From assembly GCA_015233405.1 (NCBI GenBank), contig JADFXT010000005.1, positions 10,210-74,209 of the forward strand: a stretch of DNA of 64,000 bases. Direction: 5' to 3'. Under the pieces are notes generated by a model. The model was not told where the DNA came from. It made no database searches and was given only the letters and a program-made list of their open reading frames with translations. The DNA is from Candidatus Omnitrophota bacterium (GTDB lineage: Bacteria; Omnitrophota; Gorgyraeia; Zapsychrales; Zapsychraceae). The position numbers were made by a program, and so were the translations under genes. Positions 50,141 through 64,000 of this stretch are shown one piece after another (within the stretch, counting starts at the first letter, position 1; the number at the start of each line of letters is the position of its first letter).

Positions 50141-50638
50141 ATGGAAAAAACTCAGAAACTATTATTGGGATTAGCTCTCATCGCCGCTGTTGTGATGGTT
50201 GCTCTTCCTGTGATGGCTCAGACAGAAGAAAAGATGGCTGAACCTGCAGTTGCTAATGCTGAAGTTGCTGCTCCAGCTGTCGAAGCTACTGCTCCGGCTG
50301 TTGAAGCTACTGCTCCAGCTGTCGAAGCTGCCGCTCCTGCCGTTGAAGCTGCTCCGGCTGTTGAACCTGCCGTAGCCGCTGCTGTCGAACAGGTCGTTGG
50401 AGAAGTCGTTTCTACTGACGTAGAAAAGTCATCTTTAGTCGTGAAATATGTTGTAGATAAAGAGCTAAATATTCAAAGAACAGAAGTCTTTGATCTTAGC
50501 GCTACGACAGAAATCATGAAGGCTGAAGCGAAAATGACTCTGGCTGACGTAAAAGTCGGAGATTCTGTTACTGTCAAATATACGACAGATGCAGAAGGCA
50601 AAAAAATCGCAAGTGCTATCGCTATCGAAGTAAAGTAA
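50141..50638 (+). CDS. secreted protein with APAVEA(T/A) heptad repeats and a small beta-rich C-terminal domain
   Basis: GGGGGTGA RBS. Signal peptide (VMA-QT). Five tandem APAVEAx units. C-terminal VGDSVTVKYTTDAEGKKIA domain. Confidence 0.75.
   Translation: MEKTQKLLLGLALIAAVVMVALPVMAQTEEKMAEPAVANAEVAAPAVEATAPAVEATAPAVEAAAPAVEAAPAVEPAVAAAVEQVVGEVVSTDVEKSSLVVKYVVDKELNIQRTEVFDLSATTEIMKAEAKMTLADVKVGDSVTVKYTTDAEGKKIASAIAIEVK
50270..50368 (+). repeat. tandem 21/18-nt coding repeat (APAVEAT units)
   Basis: Units at 50270, 50291, 50312 (21 nt each) and 50333, 50351 (18 nt each): gctccNgcYgtYgaagct(act). Confidence 0.9.
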
Positions 50639-50662
50639 GACCACCTTGGTTTTATTTTGAAG

Positions 50663-50714
50663 AAGAGCGCAGAAAGGGATCGTTAAAAAACCTGATTGCG
50701 CTCTTTTTCTTTTT
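50663..50714 (+). terminator. rho-independent terminator (large loop)
   Basis: 9-bp stem aagagcgca / tgcgctctt (50663-50671 / 50697-50705) followed by tttttctttt. Confidence 0.6.
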
Positions 50715-50802
50715 AAAAGGTAGTCATCTTAGAAAAAATATTGGACACGTTTAAGATAAATGCATATAGTAATGCGAAAAATTTAACTAAGAATAAATCC
50801 TT

Positions 50803-51567
50803 ATGACGACAATAAAGAATCAAAAAATAAGCCGGGTGATGGGTGAAATCTCCAAGAAAGTTGGACAGGCTATTTTTGACTATGAAATGCTTAAAGAAGG
50901 CGACAAGGTTATCGTTGCTGTTTCCGGCGGCAAAGATAGCTTGTGTCTTTTAAAGCTGCTTCAATATCGTCAGACATTTATCCCTATTGATTTTGAGATC
51001 CTTGCTGTTCATGTGGACTATGGCATCCCCGGATTCCCGGTCGAGAAGATTGAATCCTACTGTCAGTCGCTCGAAATCCCTTTCCATCGAGAGAAAATTG
51101 ATATTCTCAAAGACAAGACCATGGAAGAGCTTAATTGCTTCTGGTGTTCTTGGAATCGACGGAAAGCCTTATTTCAGCTCGCCGATAAGCTTGGGTTCAA
51201 TAAAGTGGCTTTAGGTCATCATATGGACGACATTGTAGAGACAATCCTGATGAATATGTTCTTTAAAGGCGAGATCTCTGCGATGAAGCCGAATCAGGAT
51301 TTCTTTAAAGGCAAGCTGGCCATTATCCGGCCCTTGGCATATATTTATGAAAGCCAAATCATTCAGATGGTAAAAAAAGAATGCATTCCTGTCATTGAAG
51401 AATATACCTGCCCGCATAATGACACGACCATGCGGATATTTATGAAGAAAACCCTCGCCCAGCTTGAGAGCAAGATCCCCAAGATCAAACAGAATATTTT
51501 TAACAGCCTTCAGAATATTAAAGACGAATATCTGCTTGATAAAACAGAAGAGAGGAAAGCCTTATGA
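50803..51567 (+). CDS. ttcA: PP-loop ATPase, tRNA 2-thiocytidine biosynthesis TtcA-family
   Basis: VAVSGGKDS PP-loop. CFWCS and C-P-H Cys motifs. HHMDD block. Confidence 0.8.
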   Translation: MTTIKNQKISRVMGEISKKVGQAIFDYEMLKEGDKVIVAVSGGKDSLCLLKLLQYRQTFIPIDFEILAVHVDYGIPGFPVEKIESYCQSLEIPFHREKIDILKDKTMEELNCFWCSWNRRKALFQLADKLGFNKVALGHHMDDIVETILMNMFFKGEISAMKPNQDFFKGKLAIIRPLAYIYESQIIQMVKKECIPVIEEYTCPHNDTTMRIFMKKTLAQLESKIPKIKQNIFNSLQNIKDEYLLDKTEERKAL

Positions 51568-52346
51568 AAACGGCATTGTTTTATTTTTCCGGGACCGGCA
51601 ATTCCTTAGTCTTAGCACGAAAACTCAGCGCAAAGCTAAATGGCGCTGAAATCATTTCCATTGCTGAAGCTATAAATAAAAATATTGTCGTCGATGTCGA
51701 GTGCGTCGGGATCATTTTTCCTGTTTACATGTTCGGGTTACCGTTAATCGTCTTACGATTCCTTAAGAAATTAAACCCATTAAAAAATAAATATATTTTT
51801 GCCATTGCAGATTTTGGAGGCGCGGCCGGAGACCCATTAGGCCAAATGAACCAAGAATTGAAACCTTTGGGATTAAAATTAAATGCGGGATTCTTTGTTC
51901 GGATGCCCGACAACTATATTCCGTTGTTTGAGGCCGTCAAAGAAGATAGGCAGCAAAAAATGTTTAAAAAGGCGGAAAAACGCCTGGAGGAAATCGCGCC
52001 GATTATTTTAAACAGACAAGAAGCAAAAATTGAAAAAACATTTTTTTTGCTGACAGCCATTCTTTCCATTATTCACAAAATCTGCTCGCCGCAGATCCCT
52101 GTTATGGACAAGCATTTCTGGGTTGACGAAAAATGTAACGGCTGTGAACTTTGCCAAAAAGTTTGCCCTGTCTTTAATATCAGGATTGTCGACCATAAAC
52201 CTGTTTGGTTACACCATTGTGAGCAATGCCTGGCCTGCCTTCATTGGTGTCCAACACAAGCTATTCAATTTTTTGGAAAATCCACCCTAAAACATAAGCG
52301 ATACCACCACCCCGAAACCCATATCACTGATTTCTTGTCAAAATAA
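51564..52346 (+). CDS. EFR1-family flavodoxin-like / 4Fe-4S ferredoxin protein
   Basis: FYFSGTGNS N-terminus. C-terminal CNGCELCQKVCP and CEQCLACLHWCP clusters. Confidence 0.75.
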   Translation: MKTALFYFSGTGNSLVLARKLSAKLNGAEIISIAEAINKNIVVDVECVGIIFPVYMFGLPLIVLRFLKKLNPLKNKYIFAIADFGGAAGDPLGQMNQELKPLGLKLNAGFFVRMPDNYIPLFEAVKEDRQQKMFKKAEKRLEEIAPIILNRQEAKIEKTFFLLTAILSIIHKICSPQIPVMDKHFWVDEKCNGCELCQKVCPVFNIRIVDHKPVWLHHCEQCLACLHWCPTQAIQFFGKSTLKHKRYHHPETHITDFLSK

Positions 52347-52529
52347 CTTTCTTGCCTGCACGCCTTGTTTTTTCCCAAACATGTGTTATCTTTTATACCA
52401 AGTAAGCTATAAGACTATCTTTTCATTATTTTATCCAGCCAAAGAGATAGTTCTGGAATAATTAACTGTTATTCTCATAACTTTTTATCCAGACGTGCTA
52501 ACCCTTATTTTTAGGAGGCTGGTCATAAA

Positions 52530-55500
52530 ATGATAGTCACATTTAAGAAAAGACAGTTGAATTTATTTACTAAATCCATCTCGTTTCTTCTTCTCGCGAC
52601 TTTTCTATCCACAACCATCATTCCTCAGGGCTATGCCCAGAGCATAGCACTGCCGACTCCGGGCGCGATGGTGACACCGTCCATGGCGTATGTGCCAGCG
52701 CTTTTAAAAGGCATGACGCTACATAAGGACAATCCATTTCAGTTTGATTTTATTATCGATAACGGCCAAAGCGGTCTTCAAGGCGACGCTCTTAAAAATG
52801 AATCCAAACGCTTAGTCAAATATTTCCTCGCATCCATGACCGTTCCGCAGAATGACCTTTGGGTTAACTTGTCTCCGGCAGAAAAGAATCGCATTGTCCC
52901 CGACGCATTAGGCAAAACTGAATTAGGCCAGGATTTATTAGCCCAGGATTACATTTTAAAGCAATTGACTGCCACATTGATGTATCCGGAAGGGGAGTTA
53001 GGCAAAAAATTTTGGGATCGCATATATAAGGAAGCAAAAGAAAAGTACGGCGTAACCGATATTCCGACGGACACATTTAACAAAGTCTGGATTTTACCCG
53101 AATCCGCGACGATCTATGAAAATGGTGCCACGGTGTATGTTGTTGATGCGAAATTGAAGGTGATGTTGGATCAAGACTACGCAGCAATGCCCCAAAAGGG
53201 TGTCATTGCGAGGAACGAAGTGACGAAGCAATCTTTTTTAAAAGGGATTGCTTCGCAAAAAGACGCTCGCAATGACACAAATATGATGAATTCTCAGATC
53301 ATTCGTCAAATCATCCTCCCTGAAATAGAAAAAGAAGTAAACACCGGTAAAAACTTCGCCCCACTTCGCCAAATCTATCATTCGCTCATTTTAGCCAAGT
53401 GGTACAAAGAGAAGGTCCGCAACAGCATTCTTTCCTCGTCGTATATCAATAAAAATAAAGTTACAGGCATTGATGAAAATAATCCGAAAGCCAAGGAAGA
53501 AATTTACGCGCAGTACATGGAAGCCTACAAAAAGGGTGTCTATAGCTATATGAAGGAAGAGTATGACCCCAAGACCCAGCAGATCACACCTAAAAAATAT
53601 TTCTCCGGCGGGTTTAAGGATGCGGATTTGGCCATGAAAACCGCCAATGCTGCGGATATTGCCAACTCTGTCGTCGGGCAGGATTTCGCCATGTCGGTTG
53701 ATATTGCAGTAAAAGACCGACAAAATATAAGAAACATTAAGCCTTTTAACGAAGAAATTCAGCAAACCGCCAAACGATTTGGTATTAATATCTCTGATAA
53801 AACTAAAATTACTGTTTTTATCGGCGAGACCCATATTGAAAATGGCTATTATTACAACTTATTTAATCAAGTTATGAAAGAAACGCTTGGCCTCGACATT
53901 GTTTATCTTCCTTATTCCATAATAAAAGGAGACACGCAAAGAATTGCTTATATCAAACAAGAGCTGGCCAATAATCCACAGCTGGTCGGCGCTGTTGTGA
54001 CTAGCCCATTTAAAGGGAAAGATGGATTCTTTGAGCCAAAAGATAATCAAATTGGCGCCATTAATTATATTGTCAAAGACACAACCGGAAAACTTACTCG
54101 TACAGCAATCGACGGAGATGCATGGCTAAAAGGATTAATTAAAGACCTGCATAGTAATATTGATTTTAAAGACAAAACCGTTGTCATTATCGGTAGCGGT
54201 GGCGCTGCCAGAGAATTGGCAGAAATTCTTAATGGCAAAGGAATCAAAAGAATCATTTTTACCGACAAAGATGCGGAGCAAAGCGATAGTCTTAAATCTA
54301 TGATTAAAGATTTGGGCGTTGATTATACTCCGGAATTCTTTTTATCCACGGATAGCGAATATTCTTTAAAATTACACCAAGCCTTTCAAGAAGCAGACCT
54401 CATCGTTAATTCGACAGGCATTGGACGCGAAAAAACTCTTGGGCAAGATCCAGTCGATAGCCAACTCTTTCAAGGCATCAAGCCCGACGTCATTATCTCT
54501 GATCTTATCAGTAACACTTTCACACAGTTTTTAATCGATGCAAAGACCGCTGGAGCTAAACACACATTCTTTGGCCGTTCCATGTTTATTAATGGCATGG
54601 TGGACTTCATGCAAGGATGGATCAAACAAAACTTTCCCGAAAAAAAAGTCAGCGATGATAAGTTATTTAACCTGATTTCTGCCTGGCTGTATAAAAAAGA
54701 TCACCCACAAGTAAATATCACAAATCAAAAAGGGCAGAAGCTTTCTGATATTAAAGCCGCTGTTTTCGATTTCGACGATACGATTGTTTTCATGGAAGAG
54801 AATCCTGTTTCCGTAATTCGGACGAATCTGCACATAAAATCGTTGATAAGTATTTGGTATGGACCTAATCAGCCATTAACACCGTCGAAAATAAAAGAAG
54901 CGCAAGATTTCTTAAGAGATATCCAAGGCCAAACCGCGGAAGAATTCCTTGAAACAGCTATAAAAATAAAAGGCCATAATCTTAGCGGGAAAACAGTTTC
55001 GGAAATGATTGCGATACGCGAACAAAAAACCGCTGAAGCGCTTCCGGATTTGATAAAGCAATGGAAAAAGAATCTTCCGACAAGCATCTTCGTTCCCGGC
55101 GTAGTAAATTTTATTAAGGAATTGCATAAATCCAAAGTGCCCGTTTATGTTGTGACCGGAAATTCGTATTTGGAAAAATATAATCTCTTAGATGTTTTAG
55201 GCTTATCGAACTATGTGACCGGAGTTTATGACGCTGAATCCAAAGAATTTATGCATCAAGATGGTCAAAAAGAACTGATCGAAAATTTTAACAAAAATGA
55301 TGTCCTTAAGAGGATCCGTGACGACTACGCATCTGTTGGGGGCAAAATTTTGATCGCCGGCGATGGGGACAGAGAATCAGAAGTAGCCCAAGATCTTCAA
55401 GAACCTTTTATGGCCGTTGCCCATACAGCAGAGCGCGTCGAACATTTCAACAATTTAAAATCGGATATGGTTCTTGCCGGCCCGGACTTTTTTAACAATC

Positions 55501-56078
55501 TGACGATCACGCCAGCAGCTGACAACGCTCTTGTCACTAATGGCAGGCCTGCGCTCATCGGCATCGACATTGGAGGGACAAAGGTCGAAGTGGCAGTTGT
55601 CACTCAGGATGAACACGGGAATTTTACGAAAGTTCTATTTTCTCAAAAAATAGCAACGTCAGAAATTAAAGGAGACCCGGCAAAATTCTTCGATAAACTT
55701 GCAAAATTTATCCGCGGGATTAAAACGGAAGCCCAAGAGAAATATAGTATCAAGATGCTTGATGTCGTCGGCGTTGGGTCTCCGGGACGATTTATCAAGA
55801 ACGCTAACAATGAAGAAGTGATCGCAGACGGGTCCGCTGAAAATTTAGGAGACGCTCCTGGGGCTTTTAATGGCGTCAATTGCCAAAAAGAGCTCTTTGA
55901 TCGCCTGGGGGGAACCGTTGTTGTCCATAATGATGCCATTGCCCAGATGATGTATGCCTATCAAAACTTATTAGAAAATTTTCCCGATATTGCAAAAACC
56001 TTCCTGAATAAAAACATTGCTTACATTGGTCCGGGAACCGGTCTTGGCGGCGGATTTGCATTTGTCGACGAAAACTGA
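52530..56078 (+). CDS. giant modular protein, part 1: signal peptide + conserved exported N-domain + AroE-like + HAD-like + N-terminal half of an actin-fold sugar kinase
   Basis: AGGAGG RBS. Signal (IIPQGYAQS). AroE-like motifs VVTSPFKG, GAINYIV, IDGD, IGSGGAARE. HAD motifs FDFDDT, VVTGNS, GDGDRE. Kinase motifs LIGIDIGGTKVEV, VGSPGRF, VHNDAIAQ, GPGTGLGGG. The ORF ends inside the kinase domain. Confidence 0.85.
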   Translation: MIVTFKKRQLNLFTKSISFLLLATFLSTTIIPQGYAQSIALPTPGAMVTPSMAYVPALLKGMTLHKDNPFQFDFIIDNGQSGLQGDALKNESKRLVKYFLASMTVPQNDLWVNLSPAEKNRIVPDALGKTELGQDLLAQDYILKQLTATLMYPEGELGKKFWDRIYKEAKEKYGVTDIPTDTFNKVWILPESATIYENGATVYVVDAKLKVMLDQDYAAMPQKGVIARNEVTKQSFLKGIASQKDARNDTNMMNSQIIRQIILPEIEKEVNTGKNFAPLRQIYHSLILAKWYKEKVRNSILSSSYINKNKVTGIDENNPKAKEEIYAQYMEAYKKGVYSYMKEEYDPKTQQITPKKYFSGGFKDADLAMKTANAADIANSVVGQDFAMSVDIAVKDRQNIRNIKPFNEEIQQTAKRFGINISDKTKITVFIGETHIENGYYYNLFNQVMKETLGLDIVYLPYSIIKGDTQRIAYIKQELANNPQLVGAVVTSPFKGKDGFFEPKDNQIGAINYIVKDTTGKLTRTAIDGDAWLKGLIKDLHSNIDFKDKTVVIIGSGGAARELAEILNGKGIKRIIFTDKDAEQSDSLKSMIKDLGVDYTPEFFLSTDSEYSLKLHQAFQEADLIVNSTGIGREKTLGQDPVDSQLFQGIKPDVIISDLISNTFTQFLIDAKTAGAKHTFFGRSMFINGMVDFMQGWIKQNFPEKKVSDDKLFNLISAWLYKKDHPQVNITNQKGQKLSDIKAAVFDFDDTIVFMEENPVSVIRTNLHIKSLISIWYGPNQPLTPSKIKEAQDFLRDIQGQTAEEFLETAIKIKGHNLSGKTVSEMIAIREQKTAEALPDLIKQWKKNLPTSIFVPGVVNFIKELHKSKVPVYVVTGNSYLEKYNLLDVLGLSNYVTGVYDAESKEFMHQDGQKELIENFNKNDVLKRIRDDYASVGGKILIAGDGDRESEVAQDLQEPFMAVAHTAERVEHFNNLKSDMVLAGPDFFNNLTITPAADNALVTNGRPALIGIDIGGTKVEVAVVTQDEHGNFTKVLFSQKIATSEIKGDPAKFFDKLAKFIRGIKTEAQEKYSIKMLDVVGVGSPGRFIKNANNEEVIADGSAENLGDAPGAFNGVNCQKELFDRLGGTVVVHNDAIAQMMYAYQNLLENFPDIAKTFLNKNIAYIGPGTGLGGGFAFVDEN
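53201..53279. repeat. TGTCAT-terminated nested palindromic element lying inside the coding sequence
   Basis: Outer arms gtgtcattgcgag (53201-53213) / ctcgcaatgacac (53267-53279). Inner arms cgaagcaatc (53225-53234) / gattgcttcg (53247-53256). Translates as VIARNEVTKQSFLKGIASQKDARNDT. Confidence 0.75.
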
Positions 56079-59000
56079 CGGACATATTTATGACATGAAG
56101 ATCCTTGATAAACCGGTTACCCTTGCTTTGAACTGGCAGGGACAAAAAATGGAAATTCCTTTATTTGAAATGGCACAAGACTTATTCTCCGGCGGCAATG
56201 GGATCGGAGAAACTCTCATGATGAGGATCAATCAAAAAGCCCTAGATATGGGATTGGAAAAACCTTTTTCCTATCAGGAAGGGTTGAATGAAAAAGAAAT
56301 TATTGGTTTTATGAAAGCATCAGGAGGAAAACTTTTGAGCGATATTCTTGTTGCAGGAAAAGCTGATTCTCGCTATGAAATCGCTCAACAGATAGCCGCA
56401 TTTGAAGGTCAAATGTTAGCTCTCATTATTGAACATATTTATAACGGCGATATTCGGAAATGGAACCCGTCGGCAGATTGGTCACAAGAGGATAGGGATT
56501 TTGTCAAAGGGACCAAGAATTTCATTTTGGGCGGGAGCGTTACGAAAGGGTCATTCGGAACCATTGTTGAAAAAACAGCCCGGGAAGAATTAGCCGCCAA
56601 AGGATTGGTCGATGTTCAATTGATCCTTCCGAAGATGGATACCGCTAAAGCCGGAGTTTTGGGTGCAGCCGGATTTGTCAACGATGTTGCCAAAATGAAA
56701 ACAACAGATTCTGATTCAGCGATGGTAGCAGCCCAAGGCGTTTTGGTGAATGGCGTTGTAGTCGATAAAAATTTAGCGCTCGAAGCCATAAATTTATTAG
56801 AAAAGCCCGTCAAAGAACGTTTTATCTATAAAATCCCAACAGCAATTTTTAGACGCTATCCTTACCTTGCTCCGGTTTTAGATTTAACTTTGCCGGCCAA
56901 GGAAACAGAATCCAAGAAACGAGAAACCGCGCGGCTTTTTATCGAGAAATTCATCCGTGCCAAGCATCCGAATTCCGTAAAATCTGTTTCCACAGAAACG
57001 GAATCCTTGGCTCTTCAAATGGAACGCGTCAGCCCTACGGATTTTGGCCTGCGATTTTCTTTTGATCCGTTTGGATTAAGAGTCAAACGGCTTGCCAAAG
57101 AATTAGCGGCATTCTTAAAAGAAGAGAAAGCTCGTATAGAAAAAATCATGCTGCCCAATATTTATCAAGTCCCGTCAGCTCAAGCCACCCGAGCCATCGA
57201 TATGGATTTAAGAAGAATCAAATCAGAGCTTATCGAACAAACTCCAGAAGAATTTGAAAGCGACTTAGCTGCTTTAAAAAATCAAACACTTTCTTATGAA
57301 CAACGTAATACCAAGATGTATCCTTTGATCCTTAAAAGCAAAGGAGAGAGGCTAAACAGAGTAAAGAGCACTCTTCTGGAAATCTTTCGTACAGAAGCCG
57401 GCATCATGCGCGAACGGGCGTGGAACGGTTTACGTTTTATGGGCATCCCGGGAGAAGAAATTCAAGAAACCCCCGCGACTTCCGTTACTACAGACAAGGC
57501 GATGATATCAATCACAGCAGGCCTTATTGGATTTGGTGTTATAGCGACGTATATCGGCATTCGAAAATTTTTCCGTTACCACACCATTAACGGTGCCATG
57601 TCCATGTTAGAAAATCCTTTGTCAGAACGGTCATTAGAGAAAGCGAACCATTTCTTAAGGAACCAACAGGATTGGCCAGGTACCCCAGACACCAAGGAAA
57701 GACTTTTTAACGGATATATGAACGTCTTAAAAAATTCTATGCATATAGGGTCCATGATCGAAGCCATTGAACAATTGGCCAATTTAGGTATCAGGCAGAC
57801 TGAAGCAATTGATACCATTGCCGATTACTTAGGCGGGTTACGAAAAAGAGACGCCCAATTTTTGGCTTCATTGAAGAAAAAATATCCTCCACAAAATGAC
57901 TTTAGAGATTATTTGGCCGACTGGATGTATAAATTGGATTTTAAGTTTTATTTTAGCATAGGCGCAAATACGCGTTTTGCGGCAAGGGCCGCTTTAGTCA
58001 AGCTCAAAGCTCCAGAAGAGAAATATGTTCCCGGGTATTTCGCCGCCGTGAAGGCCGATATCAAAGAAAATATGCTTAACGGCAAAAAACACATCGCCGA
58101 AAACGCTATGGCCGAATTAAGGGAATTGAACTCCGACAAGGCCAAAAAATTACGTTACGATGGGTATTTGGAAATCCTCAAAACCCCGGAAATGGCGGAT
58201 TATGTTCTCCAGGAAGCCTTGGAACAACTCGAGGTCCTGGGACATCCTCAGGCAAAAACTTTTAAGAAATTTTATGAAAAACTAGGGGCTAGAACCTTTG
58301 GACAAATTTTTGTTACCGGCACAATATATGAAAAAAGATTTCAAGAGGCTTGGGAAATCCAAAACTCAGGATACGAGTTTGAAATAATTTATAATGAAGA
58401 AAAGAGCCATTTGAAGCAATACACGGTTGATCCCGGAGATGGGGGCGGCCTGCTGTTAAGGGAAAGGAAAATCATTGACGTGCCGGCGCATCCGATTGAA
58501 ATCGTTAAAACAGAAAAATTGCCGGACGCTTTACCATCGACAGACAAGGCGATGCTAGTTCGTTGGACAACGGATTGGTATATTGAAAAAGGGCTGAATA
58601 TCAATATTGTTTCCAAGGAAAACACGAAAATCCATATCAAAACAATTAAAATCCTTACCCATCGCTATCTCAAAAGTCCGAAAAATAGGGAGATAATAAA
58701 ACAAGCACTGTTCAATATGCTGACCGATTTCTCAAAAGAGGCGAGAGAAGCTACCAGAGCCGCGTTGGCTAAACTCAATATCTCAAAAGTAGAAATTATT
58801 GCTGCGAATATGCACGTCCTCAAAACTGTTTGGTTTGATCCGGCCATCCCGGAAGCTATTGAACAGTTGAAACAGTTAGAGTCAGACGACACAAGAGAAC
58901 CGCTGATCAACGGTTATCTGGAGGTCCTGAAAACTACGTCTTCCACTGAGTTGGCAATCCAAGGGACGGTTGAACGGTTGAGGCACTTAAGATCGGAGGA

Positions 59001-59850
59001 CACAAAAGAACGAATTATTAACGGGTACCTGGAAGTCCTCAAAACTCCTGGGAACGGGAGTGCCATTGAAGAAACCATTAAAGAATTGGGTGACTTGAAA
59101 GACCCAAGGGCAATACCATTGATACTTAAATATTTTTCCATATACCCGACGATAGCAACGATTGCTTTAACTAAACTTCATGTTCCCCCAAAAACACTCA
59201 TTACCAAAAACATGAACGTCCTGAAAACCCCATTGGAGTCTTATATTCTCCAACAAGCGATTGAACAGTTAAGACAATTAAAATCGGACGATACAAGAGA
59301 ACTGTTTATTACCGGTTATCTGGACGTCATGAAAACTTCTGACTGGTCTGCCTCCATTAAAGAAGCCATTCAACAGTTAGCTGCGCTGGGACATCCTCAA
59401 GTTAAAATTTTCCAAGAAGTCAGTAACAGGATATCTTCTTCTCCTATCCCTGGAGAAACATTCGGCCTATTTTTTAGGCAGGCCTTGGACATCCGGTTGT
59501 CAGGGTGCGATTTCAAGATTCCTGAGTATTCCAATCCCTGGATTTATTATCGAAGAAATGACCTTGATAATCCGGTCATTGTCTCAATCGGGGCAGTCGA
59601 CAACGCGCTGGTGACCAAGAAAAACGTCGGTGGTATTGACATGAACAACATTAATTTAAAAGGCGATGGGAAGGGGACGTTCACTGCGTTTACGTTCCAG
59701 TTCGACTTAAAGGTAATGGAACAATTCAAAGATGTGCCCGTCGATAACCTTTCTCCGGTGATTATCAATATCGTGCCGATTCCAAGCATTCTGCCGCTTC
59801 TTGGACTTAAAGAAGATACGACGGAAAAACTAGCAAAAGCGGAAAATTAA
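56017..59850 (+). CDS. giant modular protein, part 2 (+1 frame): C-terminal half of the sugar kinase + linker + TM helix + HEAT-like repeats + C-terminal GGIDMN module
   Basis: Kinase C-half ILGGSVTKGSFG...AKAGVLGAAGF. TM MISITAGLIGFGVIATYIGI. Repeated NGYLEVLKT...AIEQL(x)xL units. The end is VGGIDMNNINLKGDG...IVPIPSILPLLGLKE. The Met at 56017 is probably not the real start (see findings). Confidence 0.8.
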   Translation: MLTLVREPVLAADLHLSTKTDGHIYDMKILDKPVTLALNWQGQKMEIPLFEMAQDLFSGGNGIGETLMMRINQKALDMGLEKPFSYQEGLNEKEIIGFMKASGGKLLSDILVAGKADSRYEIAQQIAAFEGQMLALIIEHIYNGDIRKWNPSADWSQEDRDFVKGTKNFILGGSVTKGSFGTIVEKTAREELAAKGLVDVQLILPKMDTAKAGVLGAAGFVNDVAKMKTTDSDSAMVAAQGVLVNGVVVDKNLALEAINLLEKPVKERFIYKIPTAIFRRYPYLAPVLDLTLPAKETESKKRETARLFIEKFIRAKHPNSVKSVSTETESLALQMERVSPTDFGLRFSFDPFGLRVKRLAKELAAFLKEEKARIEKIMLPNIYQVPSAQATRAIDMDLRRIKSELIEQTPEEFESDLAALKNQTLSYEQRNTKMYPLILKSKGERLNRVKSTLLEIFRTEAGIMRERAWNGLRFMGIPGEEIQETPATSVTTDKAMISITAGLIGFGVIATYIGIRKFFRYHTINGAMSMLENPLSERSLEKANHFLRNQQDWPGTPDTKERLFNGYMNVLKNSMHIGSMIEAIEQLANLGIRQTEAIDTIADYLGGLRKRDAQFLASLKKKYPPQNDFRDYLADWMYKLDFKFYFSIGANTRFAARAALVKLKAPEEKYVPGYFAAVKADIKENMLNGKKHIAENAMAELRELNSDKAKKLRYDGYLEILKTPEMADYVLQEALEQLEVLGHPQAKTFKKFYEKLGARTFGQIFVTGTIYEKRFQEAWEIQNSGYEFEIIYNEEKSHLKQYTVDPGDGGGLLLRERKIIDVPAHPIEIVKTEKLPDALPSTDKAMLVRWTTDWYIEKGLNINIVSKENTKIHIKTIKILTHRYLKSPKNREIIKQALFNMLTDFSKEAREATRAALAKLNISKVEIIAANMHVLKTVWFDPAIPEAIEQLKQLESDDTREPLINGYLEVLKTTSSTELAIQGTVERLRHLRSEDTKERIINGYLEVLKTPGNGSAIEETIKELGDLKDPRAIPLILKYFSIYPTIATIALTKLHVPPKTLITKNMNVLKTPLESYILQQAIEQLRQLKSDDTRELFITGYLDVMKTSDWSASIKEAIQQLAALGHPQVKIFQEVSNRISSSPIPGETFGLFFRQALDIRLSGCDFKIPEYSNPWIYYRRNDLDNPVIVSIGAVDNALVTKKNVGGIDMNNINLKGDGKGTFTAFTFQFDLKVMEQFKDVPVDNLSPVIINIVPIPSILPLLGLKEDTTEKLAKAEN
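58855..59337 (+). repeat. three diverged 81-nt coding repeats (HEAT-like unit AIEQLxxLxSxDTxExxINGYLEVLKT)
   Basis: Units at 58855-58935, 58966-59046 and 59257-59337 align at the DNA level without gaps, with many identical stretches (attgaacagtt, acaagagaac, ggttatctgga, gaaaact). Confidence 0.7.
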
Positions 59851-59881
59851 TCGTTTGATCCTAAAAATATTTTATAAAATC

Positions 59882-59914
59882 AGGGGCTGAGTCTTCAGCC
59901 CCTTTTAATTTTAT
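59882..59914 (+). terminator. rho-independent terminator of the giant gene
   Basis: Stem ggggctga / tcagcccc (59883-59890 / 59895-59902), loop gtct, then ttttaatttt. Confidence 0.8.
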
Positions 59915-59974
59915 CGACGGAGAAACGAAGAAATAAACCATTTCTAAAAAAGATAAATATTTTTTGCCGGCACC

Positions 59975-60003
59975 TTGTCGAGAAGCAAATCATATGCTAT
60001 TCT
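59975..60003 (+). promoter_or_regulatory. candidate sigma70-type promoter for the riboswitch leader
   Basis: TTGTCG (59975-59980), 17-nt spacer, TATTCT (59998-60003). It sits about 10 nt upstream of the aptamer. Confidence 0.35.
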
Positions 60004-60013
60004 TGTAATAGAA

Positions 60014-60104
60014 TTTGGTAAAGGTAAACTACTCGAAAGAGTAGGGCGCAAAGCCGTGAACCTAAAACCTTCTGGAGGAAGGGAATGGTTGTCTGGCTGC
60101 CGAA
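60014..60104 (+). promoter_or_regulatory. c-di-GMP-I (GEMM-I) riboswitch aptamer
   Basis: Core CTACTC-GAAA-GAGTAG-GGCGCAAAGCC-GTGAA-CCTAAAACC closely parallels the V. cholerae Vc2 core CCAUUC-GAAA-GAGUGG-GACGCAAAGCC-UCCGG-CCUAAACC (recalled from memory). GAAA tetraloop hairpin 60029-60044. Receptor-bearing hairpin gcc/aacc/ccttc...gaagg/ggtt/ggc at 60053-60097. Possible P1 tttgg/ccgaa (60014-18 / 60100-04). Confidence 0.8.
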
Positions 60105-60126
60105 GCGGAGGCTTCGTTAAACATAT

Positions 60127-60157
60127 CGCGCCCCTTTACTAGAGGCGCGTTTTTATT
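60127..60157 (+). terminator. intrinsic terminator forming the riboswitch expression platform
   Basis: Stem cgcgcc/ggcgcg (60127-60132 / 60144-60149) plus 2 further bp, then a T5 run at 60150-60154. The 5' arm gcgccc (60128-33) is complementary to aptamer core gggcgc (60044-49). Confidence 0.7.
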
Positions 60158-60385
60158 AGTTGCCTTCCATTATGATGGAAAAGGCAACTAGAAGACCCTT
60201 TGAGATCCTAAAATCTATTCAAGGACTCAAAGGGTAAAAAGTATGGGGGAGTAAGCATATAACCATTTGAGCTTAAGAAGTGTAATGAAAAAGCTCGATG
60301 GTCTAGAGAAAGGGGTTGTAAGTAGGGGGAACTCTAACAGATAAACTCCCAGGTGAGGTGGCCCCCTGCCTCACCTTTCCTGGGG
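60157..60385 (+). other. array of four strong hairpins in the rtcB leader (unclassified structured RNA or palindromic repeat units)
   Basis: Hairpin A 60157-60190 (14 bp). B 60195-60235 (10+4 bp, contains CCTAAAA). C 60262-60302 (5+6 bp). D 60346-60385 (8-bp core aggtgagg/cctcacct with C5 loop). G5 tracts at 60245-49 and 60325-29 are complementary to the D loop. Confidence 0.5.
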
Positions 60386-60501
60386 TGTTTGGCATATGAT
60401 GTAGGAAAATGGTGGACACTGTCGTTTTTCATAAATATACTACATTCATGTGTTAGGCATCCCAGGCCGGATTTTCCTGCCTGTCGTTATCAAAAACATC
60501 C

Positions 60502-61680
60502 ATGAGCTTTCAACTTATCCACAATATTCCTGTCTGGGGCGAACCCATTGACGAGGCGGTTAATCAACTTATCAACTGCGCTAAGACTGCAGACAAATGC
60601 GCTTTAATGGCGGACCATCATCCTGGCTATGCCGTGCCTATTGGCGGCGTTGTGGCGTATAGGGATAAGATCAGCCCGTCGGGTGTTGGCTATGACATTG
60701 CCTGCGGTAATAAAGCCGTACGCCTTGATATTCCTGCCGACGAAGTTAAAGATCACATCAAAGAGATCATGACCGACATTTTTGAAACGCTCTCATTCGG
60801 CATTGGCCTAAAAAATAATGAACGCGTGGATCATCCATTATTTCACGATGACGCGGCATGGCAGCTTGGTGTCGCCAAAGAACTTAAATTAAAAAAACTG
60901 GCGCAGGAACAATTGGGCACCATCGGTTCAGGGAATCATTACGTTGATTTATTTACCGACGAAGAAAACAGGGTTTGGCTTGGCATCCATTTTGGGTCGC
61001 GCGGGCTTGGCCATAGATTAGCCAAATATTTTATCCAAAAAGGCGGCGGGCGAGATGGCATGAACGTAGACCCGGTGGTGCTTAATGTGAAAAGCGATCT
61101 CGCGCAAGATTATCTTTTAGGTATGAAACTCGCCGGGCGTTATGCCTATGCGGGACGAGATTGGGTTTGTAAACGCATTGCTCAATTATTGCAGGCAAAT
61201 ATCTTGGAAGAAGTCCATAACCATCATAATTACGCTTGGGCCGAAGAACATAATGGAGAAAAACTTTGGGTCATCCGCAAAGGCGCGACCCCGGCGTTTC
61301 CGGGACAGAAAGGTTTTATCGGCGGGAGCATGGGAGATATTTCCGTGATCGTCGAAGGAATTGACTCGGATGAAAGCCGGCGGGCCATGTATTCGACCGT
61401 CCACGGTGCCGGACGCCTGATTTCACGGACAGCCGCAGCCGGAAGGAAAAGAGGCCGTTATCGTATGGGCGGAAAAATTACGCGCGAGATGATGAAAGAG
61501 TGGGTGGATTCTAAAAATGTTACGCTTATCGGCGCAGGAACAGATGAGTCTCCGCATTGTTATAAAAGATTACCGGAAGTCTTGAAATATCATGAAAAAA
61601 CCATTAGAATTCTCCATACGCTTACCCCGATTGGGGTAGCAATGGCAGGAGAAGACGTTTTCGACCCATTTAAAGATTAA
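60502..61680 (+). CDS. rtcB: RNA ligase RtcB (3'-phosphate/5'-hydroxyl RNA-splicing ligase family)
   Basis: Motifs HHPGYAVPIGGV, GVGYDIACG, GSGNHY, FGSRGLGH, HNHHNYA, IRKGATPA, GGSMGD, VHGAGR. Confidence 0.93.
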   Translation: MSFQLIHNIPVWGEPIDEAVNQLINCAKTADKCALMADHHPGYAVPIGGVVAYRDKISPSGVGYDIACGNKAVRLDIPADEVKDHIKEIMTDIFETLSFGIGLKNNERVDHPLFHDDAAWQLGVAKELKLKKLAQEQLGTIGSGNHYVDLFTDEENRVWLGIHFGSRGLGHRLAKYFIQKGGGRDGMNVDPVVLNVKSDLAQDYLLGMKLAGRYAYAGRDWVCKRIAQLLQANILEEVHNHHNYAWAEEHNGEKLWVIRKGATPAFPGQKGFIGGSMGDISVIVEGIDSDESRRAMYSTVHGAGRLISRTAAAGRKRGRYRMGGKITREMMKEWVDSKNVTLIGAGTDESPHCYKRLPEVLKYHEKTIRILHTLTPIGVAMAGEDVFDPFKD

Positions 61681-61697
61681 ATCCTAAATCCGGAACA

Positions 61698-61780
61698 CGA
61701 AATTCGAAACAAAAATCTAAATTTGAATTTTGGAATTTGAGTTTTGTTTCGGTTTTCGATATTCGTATTTCGAATTTTTT
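61698..61780. repeat. AT-rich cgaaa/tttcg palindromic element plus weak terminator
   Basis: Arms cgaaa..cgaaacaaaa (61698-61714) / ttttgtttcg..tttcg (61742-61758). Then attcg-tattt-cgaat followed by T6 (61761-61780). Confidence 0.5.
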
Positions 61781-61798
61781 AACAAAAAGGAGAAGAAA

Positions 61799-63190
61799 GT
61801 GCAGACAACAAAATTCTTTTTAAAAGATAAGGATGTTCCCAAAAAGTGGTATAACCTGGCTGCGGATTTGCCGACCCCGCTATTGCCGCCTTTAGGCCCA
61901 GACGGAAAACCTATAACGCCGGATATGCTTAAGCCGGTCTTTCCAGAGAATCTTATCGAACAGGAAGTGAGTACCAAACGTTGGATTGATATTCCCGAAG
62001 AAATCCTTGAAATACTTTACCGCTGGAGGCCGACTCCACTAAGACGAGCTATTTATCTGGAAAAATATTTAAAAACCCCGGCGAGAATTTATTATAAAGA
62101 TGAAAGTGTCAGTCCCGCCGGAAGCCATAAGACCAACACCTCTATTCCTCAAGCATGGTATAACAAAAAATTTGGTATCAAGAAATTAACCACCGAAACC
62201 GGCGCCGGCCAATGGGGATGCGCACTAGCGTTCGCCTGCCAGTTGGTCGGATTAGAATGTAAAGTTTACATGGTCCGTGTCAGTTTTGAACAGAAGCCGA
62301 TGCGGAAAACCATGATGCAGGTCTGGGGCGCGAAATGTCTGGCAAGCCCGTCGGAATTTACGCAAGCCGGACGAGACATTTTAAAGAAAATGCCGGATAC
62401 TCCGGGAAGCTTAGGCATTGCCATCAGCGAAGCCGTCGAGGACGCCGTTTCGGATAAAACCGGTCAGACCAGGTATTCCTTGGGAAGTGTTTTAAACCAC
62501 GTTCTATTACATCAGACCATTATTGGACTTGAAGCCAAAAAACAGCTGGCCATTGCCAAAGAAAAAAAGGTGGACGTTGTCATCGGCTGTGCCGGCGGCG
62601 GAAGTAATTTTGGCGGCATCGCTTTTCCGTTTGCCTACGATAAAATTCACGGCAAGAAGATCACAATCATTCCGGTCGAATCCGCATCGTGTCCTAAAAT
62701 GACGCGCGGCAAATTCTCCTATGACTTCGGCGATGTTTCCGGAATGACGCCGCTATTGGCCATGATGACATTAGGCCACCAATTTATTCCTGCGCCGATT
62801 CACGCCGGAGGGCTTCGTTATCATGCTATGGCGCCATTAGTCAGCCAAGGAATTGTAGAAGGGCTTTTAACTCCTAAAGCTTATGACCAAGCCCAGGCCT
62901 ATGAAGCCGCGCTTCTGTGGGCCAAGACCGAAGGCTTTATCTGTGCGCCGGAGACGAGCCATGCGATTGCCTGCGTTATCGACGAGGCCAAGAAAGCCAA
63001 GGCTGAAGGCAAACAAAAAGTCATTCTTTTTAACTATAGCGGCCACGGATTAATGGATTTGGTCGGCTATGATAAATATTTATCCGGGCAACTAAAAGGA
63101 TATTGCTTACCGGAAGATGAACTGATCGACACCTTAAAGACATTGGAAGGCTTCCCTAAAGCTAATGCCCGAAAAACAGGAAAGTGGTAG
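61799..63190 (+). CDS. trpB: tryptophan synthase beta-like protein, TrpB2 type
   Basis: GTG start at 61799 with an AAAAAGGAGAAG RBS. The track ORF begins at 61730, inside the repeat. Motifs KWYNLAADLP, WRPTPL, YYKDESVSPAGSHKTNT, TETGAGQWG, GCAGGGSNFGG. About 463 aa, as for the TrpB2 class. Confidence 0.9.
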   Translation: MQTTKFFLKDKDVPKKWYNLAADLPTPLLPPLGPDGKPITPDMLKPVFPENLIEQEVSTKRWIDIPEEILEILYRWRPTPLRRAIYLEKYLKTPARIYYKDESVSPAGSHKTNTSIPQAWYNKKFGIKKLTTETGAGQWGCALAFACQLVGLECKVYMVRVSFEQKPMRKTMMQVWGAKCLASPSEFTQAGRDILKKMPDTPGSLGIAISEAVEDAVSDKTGQTRYSLGSVLNHVLLHQTIIGLEAKKQLAIAKEKKVDVVIGCAGGGSNFGGIAFPFAYDKIHGKKITIIPVESASCPKMTRGKFSYDFGDVSGMTPLLAMMTLGHQFIPAPIHAGGLRYHAMAPLVSQGIVEGLLTPKAYDQAQAYEAALLWAKTEGFICAPETSHAIACVIDEAKKAKAEGKQKVILFNYSGHGLMDLVGYDKYLSGQLKGYCLPEDELIDTLKTLEGFPKANARKTGKW

Positions 63191-63201
63191 TCCCCTCACA
63201 A

Positions 63202-63300
63202 TGTCATCCCCGAATGCATTAGTCGGGGAACCATAGAGGTTGAAGGCATGGATTCCCGACCTGCCTGACGGTAGGCAGGCAAAAAATTTCGGGAATGACA
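63202..63300. repeat. TGTCAT-terminated MITE/REP-like palindromic element
   Basis: Terminal inverted repeats tgtcatccccgaa (63202-63214) / ttcgggaatgaca (63288-63300), with 1 mismatch. Internal hairpins tccccga/tcgggga, attcccga/tcgggaat and cctgcct/aggcagg. Confidence 0.7.
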
Positions 63301-63335
63301 AACTTTTTAAAAATTTTAGTTTGAGGACAAATATC

Positions 63336-63908
63336 ATGAAAAAATCTATTGGAGCAAGTACGATCGTTTTTCCCACACCCGTTTTTATCGTCGGAAGTTA
63401 TGATAATAAAGGCGTTGCTGATGTCATGACTGCCGCATGGGGAGGGATTGCATGTTCCATCCCGCCATGCGTAAGCGTCTCCATCAGGCCGGAGAGGCAA
63501 ACACATGCCAACATTATGGCCAAAAAGGCTTTCACAGTAAGCATCCCATCGTCGGATTATCTTAAAGAAGCGGATTATTTCGGCATTGTCTCCGGAAAGA
63601 ATGAAGATAAATTTAAAGTCTCCGGATTAACGCCGGTCAAAAGCGATATTGTCGACGCGCCTTACGTTAAAGAATTTCCATTTGTCCTAGAATGCTCACT
63701 ATTTAAGACGCTCGAACTCGGGGCCCACACGGTGTTTGTCGGCGAGATCAAAGATGTCAAGGTCGAAGAATCTTGTTTAAATAACGAAGGTAAGCCCGAT
63801 ATTGTTAAACTTAAGCCCATGATTTTTGATCCTGCAACATGGGGTTATTATGGATTCGGAAAATTTTTAGACAAAGCTTTTACAGCCGGAAAAACGGTAA
63901 AGAAATGA
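63336..63908 (+). CDS. flavin reductase-like (FMN-binding split-barrel) protein
   Basis: Start at ATG 63336 with a GAGGA RBS. The track ORF start at 63240 lies in the repeat element. Typical block FPTPVFIVGSYDNKGVADVMTAAWGG...VSIRPERQTHANI. Confidence 0.85.
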   Translation: MKKSIGASTIVFPTPVFIVGSYDNKGVADVMTAAWGGIACSIPPCVSVSIRPERQTHANIMAKKAFTVSIPSSDYLKEADYFGIVSGKNEDKFKVSGLTPVKSDIVDAPYVKEFPFVLECSLFKTLELGAHTVFVGEIKDVKVEESCLNNEGKPDIVKLKPMIFDPATWGYYGFGKFLDKAFTAGKTVKK

Positions 63909-64000
63909 CGGTTTTACAAAAGAACGCGTTAGATAAAATTAAAAAAATCCACGTCCTTTCTCGCAAGCTCAACGGAAAAACAAAATCCCGTCATGAAAAG
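63905..64000 (+). CDS. 5' end of an unidentified CDS (truncated by the window edge)
   Basis: ATGA start/stop overlap with the upstream gene. Open to the window end (MTVLQKNALDKIKKIHVLSRKLNGKTKSRHEK). Confidence 0.35.
   Translation, partial: MTVLQKNALDKIKKIHVLSRKLNGKTKSRHEK

What the first reader, a model, noticed from the sequence alone, without database searches (positions are those of the whole stretch)
56017..56100. A sugar-kinase domain is cut in half by a frame change: two giant ORFs are probably one ~2,440-aa gene
What the sequence shows:
- ORF 52530..56078 ends ...NIAYIGPGTGLGGGFAFVDEN-TGA (stop at 56076-56078). That is in the middle of an actin-fold (ROK/glucokinase-like) kinase domain.
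- The N-terminal motifs of that domain (LIGIDIGGTKVEV, VGVGSPGRF, VHNDAIAQ, GPGTGLGGG) are all in this frame.
- The missing C-terminal half (ILGGSVTKGSFGTIVEK...AKAGVLGAAGF) is encoded by ORF 56017..59850 in the +1 frame.
- Deleting one A from the run GAAAAC (56070-56075) joins them as ...GGGFAFVDETDGHIYDMKILDKPV...
- The exported N-terminal domain is in part 1 and the matching C-terminal GGIDMN module is in part 2. This also argues for a single gene.

Inference: this is an assembly or sequencing indel in a homopolymer, a recent pseudogenising frameshift, or a +1 recoding event.
Basis: partly seen in the sequence, partly recalled or inferred. Interest (0 to 1): 0.8.

Follow-up and report, generated by a model that had tools for sequence, protein, structure and literature searches.

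The report
Frame-broken giant Omnitrophota multi-enzyme gene
Two adjacent large reading frames are the halves of one roughly 2,440-residue Omnitrophota multi-enzyme protein gene, broken by a small out-of-frame indel inside its sugar-kinase domain; this is most likely an ordinary recent gene disruption (or an assembly error), not a new mechanism.

Summary
ORF A (52530..56078) ends inside an actin-fold (ROK-like) kinase, and the rest of the domain continues in the +1 frame (ORF B, to 59850).

Three tests show one ancestral gene:
- 107 of the 120 best family hits, all single ORFs, carry the N-module (in ORF A) and the GGIDMN C-module (in ORF B) as the two ends of one protein.
- Single-ORF homologues align straight across the junction. 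The closest is P0152, with 46% identity and E 5e-101.
- The joined domain models as one complete ROK-type kinase (pLDDT 81; Foldseek E 4e-13).

Removing one A is probably not the true repair. It leaves 7 residues between GGG and DGH, whereas 85 homologues have 10-21 (mode 14). The gap falls exactly at the frame switch, so one 3k+2-nt deletion (8 nt relative to P0152) fits best.

- The run is only A4, and about 50 other genes in the window are intact. A homopolymer read error is therefore unlikely.
- ORF B has no stop in 1,257 codons, so the lesion is recent or an artefact.
- There are no signals for programmed frameshifting.
- GenBank lists the halves as two proteins.

Overall this is an ordinary broken gene. 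The poorly described gene family it belongs to is the more interesting part.

The parts
52530..56078 (+). ORF A (1182 aa, GenBank MBF0522321.1, 'HAD hydrolase-like protein'). It is the N-terminal part of the broken gene. It has an AGGAGG Shine-Dalgarno sequence 8 nt upstream of the ATG and ends at TGA 56076-56078.
52530..52640 (+). Predicted Sec-type signal peptide (MIVTFKKRQLNLFTKSISFLLLATFLSTTIIPQGYA|Q). The YAQS motif is invariant in the family.
   Evidence: Read from the sequence. Y5 and A6 are invariant in alignment A2. No signal-peptide predictor was run.
52620..53729 (+). Conserved family N-module (~370 aa). It is present in all 120 best family hits at 50-62% identity and has no Pfam, NCBIfam or PDB relative.
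53790..54653 (+). Shikimate-dehydrogenase-like Rossmann domain. NCBIfam aroE models match residues 421-708 with E 6e-21, far below the equivalog cut-offs.
54750..55283 (+). HAD-superfamily hydrolase domain. Motif I DFDDT is present, and PF00702 scores 31.3 bits against a cut-off of 26.4.
55545..56069 (+). Kinase N-lobe and the start of the C-lobe, read in frame A. It carries DIGGTK (phosphate-1), HNDAIAQ (catalytic Asp) and GPGTGLGGG-FAFV(D) (phosphate-2).
56067..56076 (+). Lesion interval (GACGAAAACT). Frame A is validated up to FAFV(D) and frame B from T of TDGH. Only 22 nt separate GGG (ends 56054) from DGH (starts 56077). Three to seven codons of the hairpin's return strand are missing.
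56074..56661 (+). Rest of the kinase, read in frame B. It carries TDGHIYD, a helical insert shared with P0152, ILGGS (adenosine motif) and AKAGVLGAAGF.
56017..59850 (+). ORF B as deposited (1277 aa, MBF0522322.1, 'hypothetical protein'). Its first 19 residues (MLTLVREPVLAADLHLSTK) are an out-of-frame reading of the GPGTGLGGGFAFVDEN codons. No Shine-Dalgarno-like start is present.
57502..57561 (+). Single strongly hydrophobic segment (ISITAGLIGFGVIATYIGI), a predicted transmembrane helix. It directly follows a DKAM linker motif.
   Evidence: Kyte-Doolittle scan
57613..59535 (+). Helical repeat region with recurring ...INGYLEVLKT... units. Pfam HEAT_PBS and HEAT_2 hits here are only weak.
59548..59850 (+). 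Conserved family C-module (…DNALVTKKNVGGIDMN…SPVIINIVPIPSILPLLGL…) at the extreme C-terminus. It lies 0-44 aa from the C-terminus in 107 of the 120 best family hits.

Best explanation
ORF A and ORF B are the two pieces of what was one gene of about 2,440-2,450 codons. The gene belongs to a large Omnitrophota-specific family of exported multi-domain proteins.

Architecture of the ancestral protein:
- signal peptide
- conserved N-module
- variable 'cargo' of cytoplasmic-type enzyme domains, here shikimate-DH-like, HAD phosphatase-like and a ROK-like sugar kinase
- one transmembrane helix
- helical repeats
- conserved GGIDMN C-module

The gene is interrupted in the beta-hairpin that follows the kinase's phosphate-2 loop, at 56067-56076. 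The cause is a small indel whose length is not a multiple of three. The most likely event is a single deletion of 3k+2 nt: 8 nt relative to the nearest relative, or 20 nt relative to the modal homologue. That one event removed the return strand of the hairpin and shifted the frame by +1.

Consequences (inferred):
- Translation from the ORF A start stops at TGA 56076. The product is a 1182-aa exported protein with the N-module, the SDH-like and HAD domains and a dead half-kinase, but no transmembrane helix, repeats or C-module.
- ORF B has no recognisable initiation signal and is probably not made.
- ORF B has accumulated no stop or further frameshift, so the event is recent. The genome carries intact paralogues, so the loss is tolerable.

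What is shown: common origin, position of the break, and missing residues. What is inferred: that the lesion exists in the organism rather than only in the assembly, and its consequences for expression.
For: One ancestral gene:
- All 120 best family hits carry the N-module, and 107 also carry the C-module within 44 aa of their C-terminus. The window has exactly one of each, split between ORF A and ORF B.
- Thirty free-standing kinases cover 85-94% of the joined domain in one alignment.
- P0152 is a single ORF of N-module + this kinase + C-module. It aligns at 46% identity over 401 columns, E 5e-101, across the junction.
- The homologue profile is split 10-183 / 183-349 between the two ORFs.
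- The AF2 model of the joined domain has pLDDT 81.4 and pTM 0.82. It matches ROK kinases over ~390-400 columns (2yhw E 4e-13, TM-score normalised to target length 0.6-0.7).

Deletion rather than one extra A:
- The GGG-to-DGH spacing is 7 after the 1-nt repair, against 10-21 (mode 14) in 85 homologues.
- The gap sits exactly at the frame switch.
- The model's confidence collapses only there (pLDDT blocks of 56 and 60, with values below 50 at residues 174-177).

Real lesion rather than read error:
- The run is only A4.
- The window holds 218 A/T runs of 6 nt or more.
- All other ~50 genes have full-length domain matches.

Recent event:
- ORF B has 0 stops in 1257 codons, against 72-82 in its off-frames. 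GC3 is equal in both halves.

Redundancy:
Against: - No reads and no second assembly of this organism were available, so an assembly or consensus error cannot be excluded. Scans of genome and metagenome contigs found no close relative.
- A fully open 3.8-kb ORF B is also what an artefact in an intact gene would look like.
- The hairpin length varies among homologues (10-21), and the nearest relative already has a short one. A uniquely short native hairpin plus a 1-nt error is therefore possible, though it needs two coincident peculiarities.
- The sequencing platform of the source MAG was not verified.
Confidence: 0.55

Rival explanations
1. Assembly or consensus artefact. The organism carries an intact single gene, and the out-of-frame junction arose during assembly of the MAG, for example as a local mis-assembly, a collapse between strain variants or a small deletion. 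The true protein would be about 2,440-2,447 aa with a working kinase.
For: - ORF B is perfectly open, with 0 stops in 1257 codons and GC3 matching ORF A.
- All catalytic motifs on both sides are intact.
- The source is a metagenome-assembled genome deposited with two CDS.
- No second assembly exists to confirm the lesion.
Against: - It is the only broken gene among ~50 in 64 kb.
- The site is an A4 run, while 218 longer A/T runs show no visible frameshift.
- The simplest repair leaves a hairpin shorter than in all 85 homologues. A multi-nucleotide deletion is therefore needed, which is atypical of read errors.
- If the MAG is from the Illumina/metaSPAdes study PMC7602337, homopolymer errors are rare. 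That link is from memory and unverified.
Confidence: 0.3
2. Programmed +1 ribosomal frameshifting at AAC-UGA-C (prfB-like, stop-codon-stimulated). It would give ...FAFVDEN-DGHIYD... and produce both a truncated and a full-length protein.
For: The required shift is +1. The zero-frame stop is UGA followed by C, as in prfB (CUU UGA C), a weak termination context (prfB features from established knowledge).
Against: - There is no Shine-Dalgarno-like element in the ~20 nt upstream of the stop codon (sequence; the window's genes otherwise show AGGAG-type sites upstream of their starts).
- tRNA-Asn on AAC cannot re-pair on ACU.
- There is no downstream RNA structure (z -0.10).
- A4 is too short for transcriptional slippage.
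- None of the more than 100 family members or kinase homologues examined needs a shift.
- The shifted product would still lack the hairpin strand.
Confidence: 0.03
3. A stable, functional two-gene arrangement. ORF A and ORF B would be expressed separately, for example with ORF B re-initiated at ATG 56095, 17 nt after the stop. They would work as two polypeptides, and the kinase would be dispensable or reassembled from its halves.
For: - ORF B stays open.
- An ATG lies 17 nt downstream of the ORF A stop.
- Thirteen of the 120 family hits lack a detectable C-module, so truncated forms may exist. At least two of those are annotated as partial.
Against: - There is no Shine-Dalgarno sequence before any candidate ORF B start.
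- Starting at 56095 would drop the nearly invariant TDGHIYD motif.
- ORF B would lack a signal peptide and N-module, which all 120 family hits have.
- The break is inside a beta-sheet, not at a domain boundary.
- No homologue is split here.
Confidence: 0.07

Closest known systems
ROK-family / actin-fold sugar kinases (Pfam PF00480; e.g. human ManNAc kinase 2yhw, GlcNAc kinase 7p7w, E. faecalis glucokinase 2qm1)
   Same: - The fold is the same two-lobed actin-like ATPase (Foldseek E 4e-13 to 1e-9, ~390-400 aligned columns).
- The motifs match: phosphate-1 DIGGTK, catalytic NDA, phosphate-2 GPGTGLGGG, a (T)DGH sugar-site motif, and the GG adenosine motif.
   Different: - Sequence similarity to Pfam ROK is sub-threshold (16.9 bits against a cut-off of 22.9) and covers only the N-half.
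- There is no ROK zinc-binding Cys motif.
- A ~100-aa helical insert is shared only with P0152-like relatives.
- The domain is embedded in a 2,440-aa exported protein, and here it is broken by a frameshift.
Omnitrophota long multi-domain proteins ('Archaeovorin'-type giant proteins and the SP+TM long proteins with metabolic Pfam content described in bioRxiv 10.1101/2023.11.21.568195 and 10.64898/2026.06.07.730766)
   Same: - Same phylum.
- Signal peptide plus transmembrane helices.
- The same domain vocabulary: HEAT, HAD, NUDIX, PPDK, methyltransferase and sugar-metabolism enzymes.
- Those authors proposed proteolytic processing into smaller polypeptides.
   Different: - These proteins are 1.3-4.3 kaa, not 10 kaa or more.
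- They are defined by a specific ~370-aa N-module and ~90-aa GGIDMN C-module that bracket the cargo.
- I did not find those modules described in the two preprints or in PMC10066038, nor modelled in Pfam or NCBIfam.
prfB (RF2) programmed +1 frameshift
   Same: A +1 shift is needed at an in-frame UGA followed by C.
   Different: There is no slippery CUU-U codon, no upstream Shine-Dalgarno stimulator and no evidence of conservation. The product would remain structurally defective.
Ordinary frameshift pseudogenes and split genes in bacterial genomes and MAGs
   Same: - Two adjacent same-strand ORFs in different frames together cover one homologous protein.
- The break lies inside a domain.
- The downstream half has no start signal.
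- Paralogues are present.
   Different: Nothing essential differs. The only unusual points are the size of the gene, and that the downstream 3.8 kb is still completely open.

Membership tests
Omnitrophota N-module/C-module 'bookend' protein family (defined here hits) | Signal peptide plus conserved ~370-aa N-module at the N-terminus | tested here: met
   ORF A residues 31-400 match all 120 best hits at 50-62% identity. The phmmer hit in the window has E 1e-248.
Omnitrophota N-module/C-module 'bookend' protein family (defined here hits) | Conserved GGID(M/L)N...PVIINI.PI.S.LPLLGL module at the extreme C-terminus of the same polypeptide | tested here: not met
   The module is present (59548..59847, E 2e-58) but in ORF B, a different frame from the N-module. 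In 107 of 120 relatives both are in one ORF. The gene is therefore a disrupted member.
Omnitrophota N-module/C-module 'bookend' protein family (defined here hits) | Variable enzyme or repeat cargo separated by D-x-A-M-[LVM] linker motifs | tested here: met
   Six motifs lie at domain boundaries (joined residues 385, 998, 1395, 1655, 2005, 2357). In the family there are 327 observed against 78 expected from shuffles.
ROK family (Pfam PF00480) | Score above the Pfam gathering threshold over the full-length profile | tested here: not met
   The score is 16.9 bits against a cut-off of 22.9, covering only profile positions 2-139 of 294.
ROK family (Pfam PF00480) | Complete two-lobed actin-like ATPase fold with phosphate-1, phosphate-2 and adenosine motifs | tested here: met
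   This holds for the joined sequence only. AF2 gives pLDDT 81.4. The top Foldseek hits are ROK kinases, with TM-score normalised to target length of 0.6-0.7. The motifs are in alignment A1.
ROK family (Pfam PF00480) | ROK zinc-binding cysteine motif (CxCGxxGC) after the ExGH motif | tested here: not met
   There are no cysteines in the corresponding region of the window protein or its close homologues (alignment A1). The motif definition is from established knowledge.
ROK family (Pfam PF00480) | Intact beta-hairpin between the phosphate-2 loop and the (E/D)GH motif | tested here: not met
   There are 7 residues after the 1-nt repair, against 10-21 in 85 homologues. Local pLDDT is below 60.
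Shikimate dehydrogenase (AroE; NCBIfam NF001314 / TIGR00507) | Score above the equivalog cut-off | tested here: not met
   The score is 74.7 bits against a cut-off of 248. This is an SDH-like Rossmann domain only. The catalytic residues were not examined.
HAD superfamily hydrolase (PF00702) | Pfam score above the gathering threshold, and motif I DxDx(T/V) | tested here: met
   The score is 31.3 bits against 26.4. The motif DFDDT is at the start of the domain.
prfB-type programmed +1 frameshift site | In-frame UGA followed by C at the shift site | tested here: met
   The sequence is AAC TGA C at 56073-56079.
prfB-type programmed +1 frameshift site | P-site codon that allows +1 re-pairing (CUU-U), and a Shine-Dalgarno-like stimulator ~3 nt upstream | tested here: not met
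   AAC to ACU has a mismatch in the second position. The upstream sequence TTTGCATTTGTCGACGAA has no GGAGG-like element. There is no stimulatory structure.
prfB-type programmed +1 frameshift site | Conservation of the out-of-frame junction in orthologues | not testable with these tools
   No orthologue or second assembly was found.
Homopolymer sequencing or polishing error | Long homopolymer at the site, other frameshifts in the same assembly, and a repaired product collinear with homologues | tested here: not met
   The run is only A4, while there are 218 A/T runs of 6 nt or more elsewhere. No other split gene occurs among ~50. The repaired product has a 3-7 residue gap at the site. Read-level evidence is not available.

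The most novel reading that the evidence does not exclude
The broken gene belongs to an uncharacterised system found, as far as the hits carry source names, only in Omnitrophota. A conserved exported N-module and a conserved hydrophobic C-terminal GGIDMN module bracket freely swappable cytoplasmic-type enzymes. Across the family these include kinases, NDK, Maf, UGPase, PEP-utilising enzymes, glycolytic and glyoxylate-cycle enzymes, methyltransferases and radical-SAM domains.

The cargo domains are separated by a strongly enriched D-x-A-M-[LVM] linker motif. One member (P0001) even has an internal twin-arginine signal directly after the N-module.

The most novel reading not excluded is that these are polyproteins, or cargo-delivery scaffolds, cut at the DxAM sites. 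They would export or display metabolic enzymes, for example towards a host or prey cell. Frame-broken copies like this one would then reflect rapid turnover of a paralogous effector repertoire.
Probability: 0.15. Interest if true: 0.75.

Novelty: new member of a known kind. Interest (0 to 1): 0.3.

Why it matters
For the finding itself, the value is mainly one of annotation. GenBank carries the two halves as unrelated proteins: 'HAD hydrolase-like protein' MBF0522321.1 and 'hypothetical protein' MBF0522322.1. The latter has a spurious TTG start and 19 out-of-frame residues. They should be one disrupted gene, or one intact gene if reads show an artefact.

It also gives a worked example of how to distinguish a simple homopolymer error from a multi-nucleotide deletion: check whether the repaired product is collinear with homologues at the junction.

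The wider value lies in the family. More than 2,000 Omnitrophota proteins share unmodelled N- and C-terminal modules around variable metabolic-enzyme cargo. This bears on the open question of what the large proteins of these putatively host-dependent nanobacteria do.

Tried and rejected
- **Single-sequence AF2 of the joined kinase.** It was uninformative (pLDDT 44) and was superseded by the MSA-based model.
- **Searches for the source genome or a close relative.**
  - Scans of genome contigs and metagenome contigs with the kinase found only chance pattern hits.
  - Exact look-ups of ORF A and ORF B positions returned nothing.
  - Conservation of the junction across strains therefore could not be tested.
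- **SAM-methyltransferase reading of the junction.** A PDB phmmer search gave a weak hit (E 0.02) of NIAYIGPGTGLGGGFAFVDETDGHIYDMKILDK to motif I of phosphoethanolamine N-methyltransferases. I rejected it as a chance glycine-loop resemblance. The full-length homologues and the fold search are unambiguously actin-fold kinases.
- **Frame B extending upstream.** The profile alignment extended frame B to ADLHLSTK. I rejected this because frame A's F-A-F-V matches the nearly invariant F and the consensus strand after GGG, so the lesion lies after 56066.
- **UGA read as a sense codon.** Rejected. Frame A continues R-T-Y-L and then hits a second TGA.
- **-1 frameshifting.** Excluded arithmetically, because ORF B is in frame +1.
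- **Other overlapping ORF pairs** (28100, 33290, 48566). I checked them as possible further frameshifts. They are ordinary gene starts.
- **The 50-aa 'representative' P0285 of ORF A's cluster.** It is unrelated sequence and a clustering oddity.
- **Pfam, NCBIfam and PDB-profile searches of the N- and C-modules.** They found nothing.

Full report
**1. Observation**

- ORF A (52530..56078, 1182 aa) ends ...NIAYIGPGTGLGGGFAFVDEN-TGA.
- ORF B lies in frame +1 and runs to 59850. It reads ...TDGHIYDMKILDKPV... and then ILGGSVTKG...AKAGVLGAAGF.
- Removing one A of GAAAAC (56070-56075) gives an uninterrupted 2439-aa product.
- ORF A has a strong AGGAGG ribosome-binding site. None of the candidate starts of ORF B has one.

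**2. Is it one gene?**

Three independent lines say yes.

*(a) Family architecture.*
- A search with the joined protein returned 2,083 hits. Every hit that carries a source name is from Omnitrophota/Omnitrophica MAGs, and the listed hits are 1.3-4.3 kaa long.
- All 120 best hits carry the ~370-aa N-module found in ORF A. Of these, 107 also carry the GGIDMN...PVIINI.PI.S.LPLLGL module found at the end of ORF B, always within 0-44 residues of their C-terminus.
- At least two of the 13 exceptions are annotated as partial.
- In six-frame translation the window contains exactly one N-module and one C-module, split between the two ORFs.

*(b) The kinase.*
- Thirty free-standing proteins of 283-635 aa cover 85-94% of the joined 409-aa kinase region in one BLASTP alignment, with E down to 2e-40.
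- An exhaustive HMMER search found 214 relatives.
- The closest is P0152, a single 1043-aa ORF built as N-module + this kinase + C-module. It aligns at 46% identity over 401 columns (E 5e-101), straight across the junction.
- A profile of 106 homologues matches ORF A at positions 10-183 and ORF B at positions 183-349 of 361.

*(c) Structure.*
- With the homologue alignment, AlphaFold2 models the joined region at pLDDT 81.4 and pTM 0.82.
- Foldseek's best PDB matches are ROK sugar kinases: ManNAc kinase 2yhw (E 4e-13), GlcNAc kinase 7p7w and glucokinase 2qm1. They align over ~390-400 columns, with TM-score normalised to target length of 0.6-0.7.
- Both halves are needed for one actin fold.

**3. 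What is the lesion?**

- In frame A, F-A-F-V after GGG matches the family consensus, including a nearly invariant F.
- In frame B, T-D-G-H-I matches a nearly invariant motif.
- The break therefore lies between 56067 and 56073.
- Only 22 nt separate the last G codon (ends 56054) from the D of DGH (starts 56077).
- After the 1-nt repair that is 7 residues. The 85 homologues that could be scored have 10-21, with a mode of 14. The closest relative has 10.
- BLASTP places a 3-residue gap exactly at the frame switch: GGGFAFVDE---TDGH against GGGFLNLEGKVVTDGH.
- The missing residues are the return strand of the hairpin. The AF2 model loses confidence only there, with pLDDT blocks of 56 and 60 and no regular hairpin.
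- A frame shift and a residue deficit at the same spot are most economically explained by one deletion of 3k+2 nt. That is 8 nt against a P0152-like ancestor, or 20 nt against the modal length.
- The alternative is a uniquely short native hairpin plus an unrelated 1-nt insertion.

**4. Real or artefact?**

Points against a read or polishing error:
- The run is only A4, while the window has 218 A/T runs of 6 nt or more.
- The other ~50 genes of the window all give full-length domain matches, with no other split gene.
- Three other overlapping ORF pairs are normal gene starts.

Points that keep an artefact possible:
- The window is part of a GenBank MAG, 'Candidatus Omnitrophica bacterium', on a 145,861-bp contig. 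The halves are deposited there as MBF0522321.1 ('HAD hydrolase-like protein') and MBF0522322.1 ('hypothetical protein', HQL24_04610).
- From memory only, HQL-prefixed MAGs belong to the magnetotactic-bacteria study PMC7602337, which used Illumina HiSeq and metaSPAdes. I could not verify that link.
- ORF B has no stop in 1257 codons, against 72-82 in its off-frames, and the same GC3 as ORF A. This means a very recent event, or no event at all in vivo.
- No second assembly or orthologue exists in the collections searched.

I therefore put about 0.55 on a real recent disruption and about 0.30 on an assembly artefact.

**5. Recoding**

- Only +1 (or -2) could join the frames.
- The site AAC-UGA-C shares the UGA-C context of prfB.
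- It lacks a re-pairable P-site codon and an upstream Shine-Dalgarno-like stimulator. It also lacks a downstream structure (z -0.10).
- A4 is too short for transcriptional slippage.
- No homologue is split, and the shifted product would still lack the hairpin strand.
- Probability is about 0.03.

**6. What the gene encodes**

Order of features in the joined protein:
- signal peptide, with a conserved YA|QS site
- N-module, with no Pfam, NCBIfam or PDB relative
- shikimate-dehydrogenase-like domain (E 6e-21, far below equivalog cut-offs)
- HAD hydrolase with a DFDDT motif
- ROK-like kinase
- ~260 aa of unknown function
- one transmembrane helix
- helical INGYLEVLKT-type repeats
- C-module

Other observations on the family:
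- Domain boundaries are marked by a D-x-A-M-[LVM] motif. There are six copies here. In the family there are 327 against 78 expected by shuffling, with Met at 79% of the fourth position.
- Family members carry very diverse cytoplasmic-type enzymes between the same two end modules.
- Published work on Omnitrophota long proteins reports the same domain vocabulary and signal-peptide-plus-transmembrane topologies, and suggests proteolytic processing.
- I did not find the two end modules or the linker motif described in the three papers searched.

**7. Verdict**

- The specific single-A repair and the homopolymer-error idea are the weakest parts of the interpretation.
- As a phenomenon, a frame-broken paralogue in a MAG is ordinary, so interest is about 0.3.
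- Its practical value is to correct the annotation and to draw attention to the family.

Noticed in passing
window 60013..60104 (+): A c-di-GMP-I riboswitch (RF01051, 67.7 bits, E 4e-11, full-length) lies in the 650-nt gap after ORF B. It is ~400 nt upstream of an RtcB-type RNA ligase gene (60502..61680), an unusual gene to sit behind this riboswitch.
   Followed up: no
joined protein residues 385, 998, 1395, 1655, 2005, 2357 (window ~53683, 55521, 56698, 57478, 58528, 59584); also P0001, P0004, P0017, P0152: A D-x-A-M-[LVM] motif marks every domain boundary, including the position directly before the transmembrane helix and before the GGIDMN module. It is enriched about 4-fold in 120 family proteins (327 against 78 expected). 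It could be a processing site or a conserved linker.
   Followed up: partly
P0001 residues ~400-430: A family member has a twin-arginine signal-like sequence (TRRQFLKTAGAVVAGGLL; precomputed PF10518) inside the protein, directly after the N-module. This would make sense only if the protein is cut there.
   Followed up: no
window 17637..28657 and 41701..47554 (+): A secretin / T2SS-E / T2SS-F / pseudopilin / PilM cluster and a complete F-type ATP synthase operon lie about 13 kb apart on the same strand. Seymour et al. 2023 (PMC10066038) describe co-located T4aP and F-type ATPase loci as a symbiosis signature in Omnitrophota.
   Followed up: no
window 1..64000: All ~50 credible genes are on the + strand. 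The only - strand ORFs of 147 aa or more (31653..32168, 53391..53834) lie inside + strand genes.
   Followed up: no
window 56017..56073: The deposited ORF B protein (MBF0522322.1) starts at a TTG. Its first 19 residues (MLTLVREPVLAADLHLSTK) are the out-of-frame reading of the codons for GPGTGLGGGFAFVDEN, so this is an annotation artefact.
   Followed up: yes
protein collection, cluster of ORF A: ORF A's 90%-identity cluster is represented by an unrelated 50-aa protein (P0285). This may be why ORF A never appeared among the search hits.
   Followed up: partly
window 56020..56130 (joined kinase residues 160-215): There is a weak PDB sequence resemblance (E 0.02) between the junction region and motif I of SAM-dependent phosphoethanolamine N-methyltransferases. 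I judged it a chance glycine-loop similarity.
   Followed up: yes
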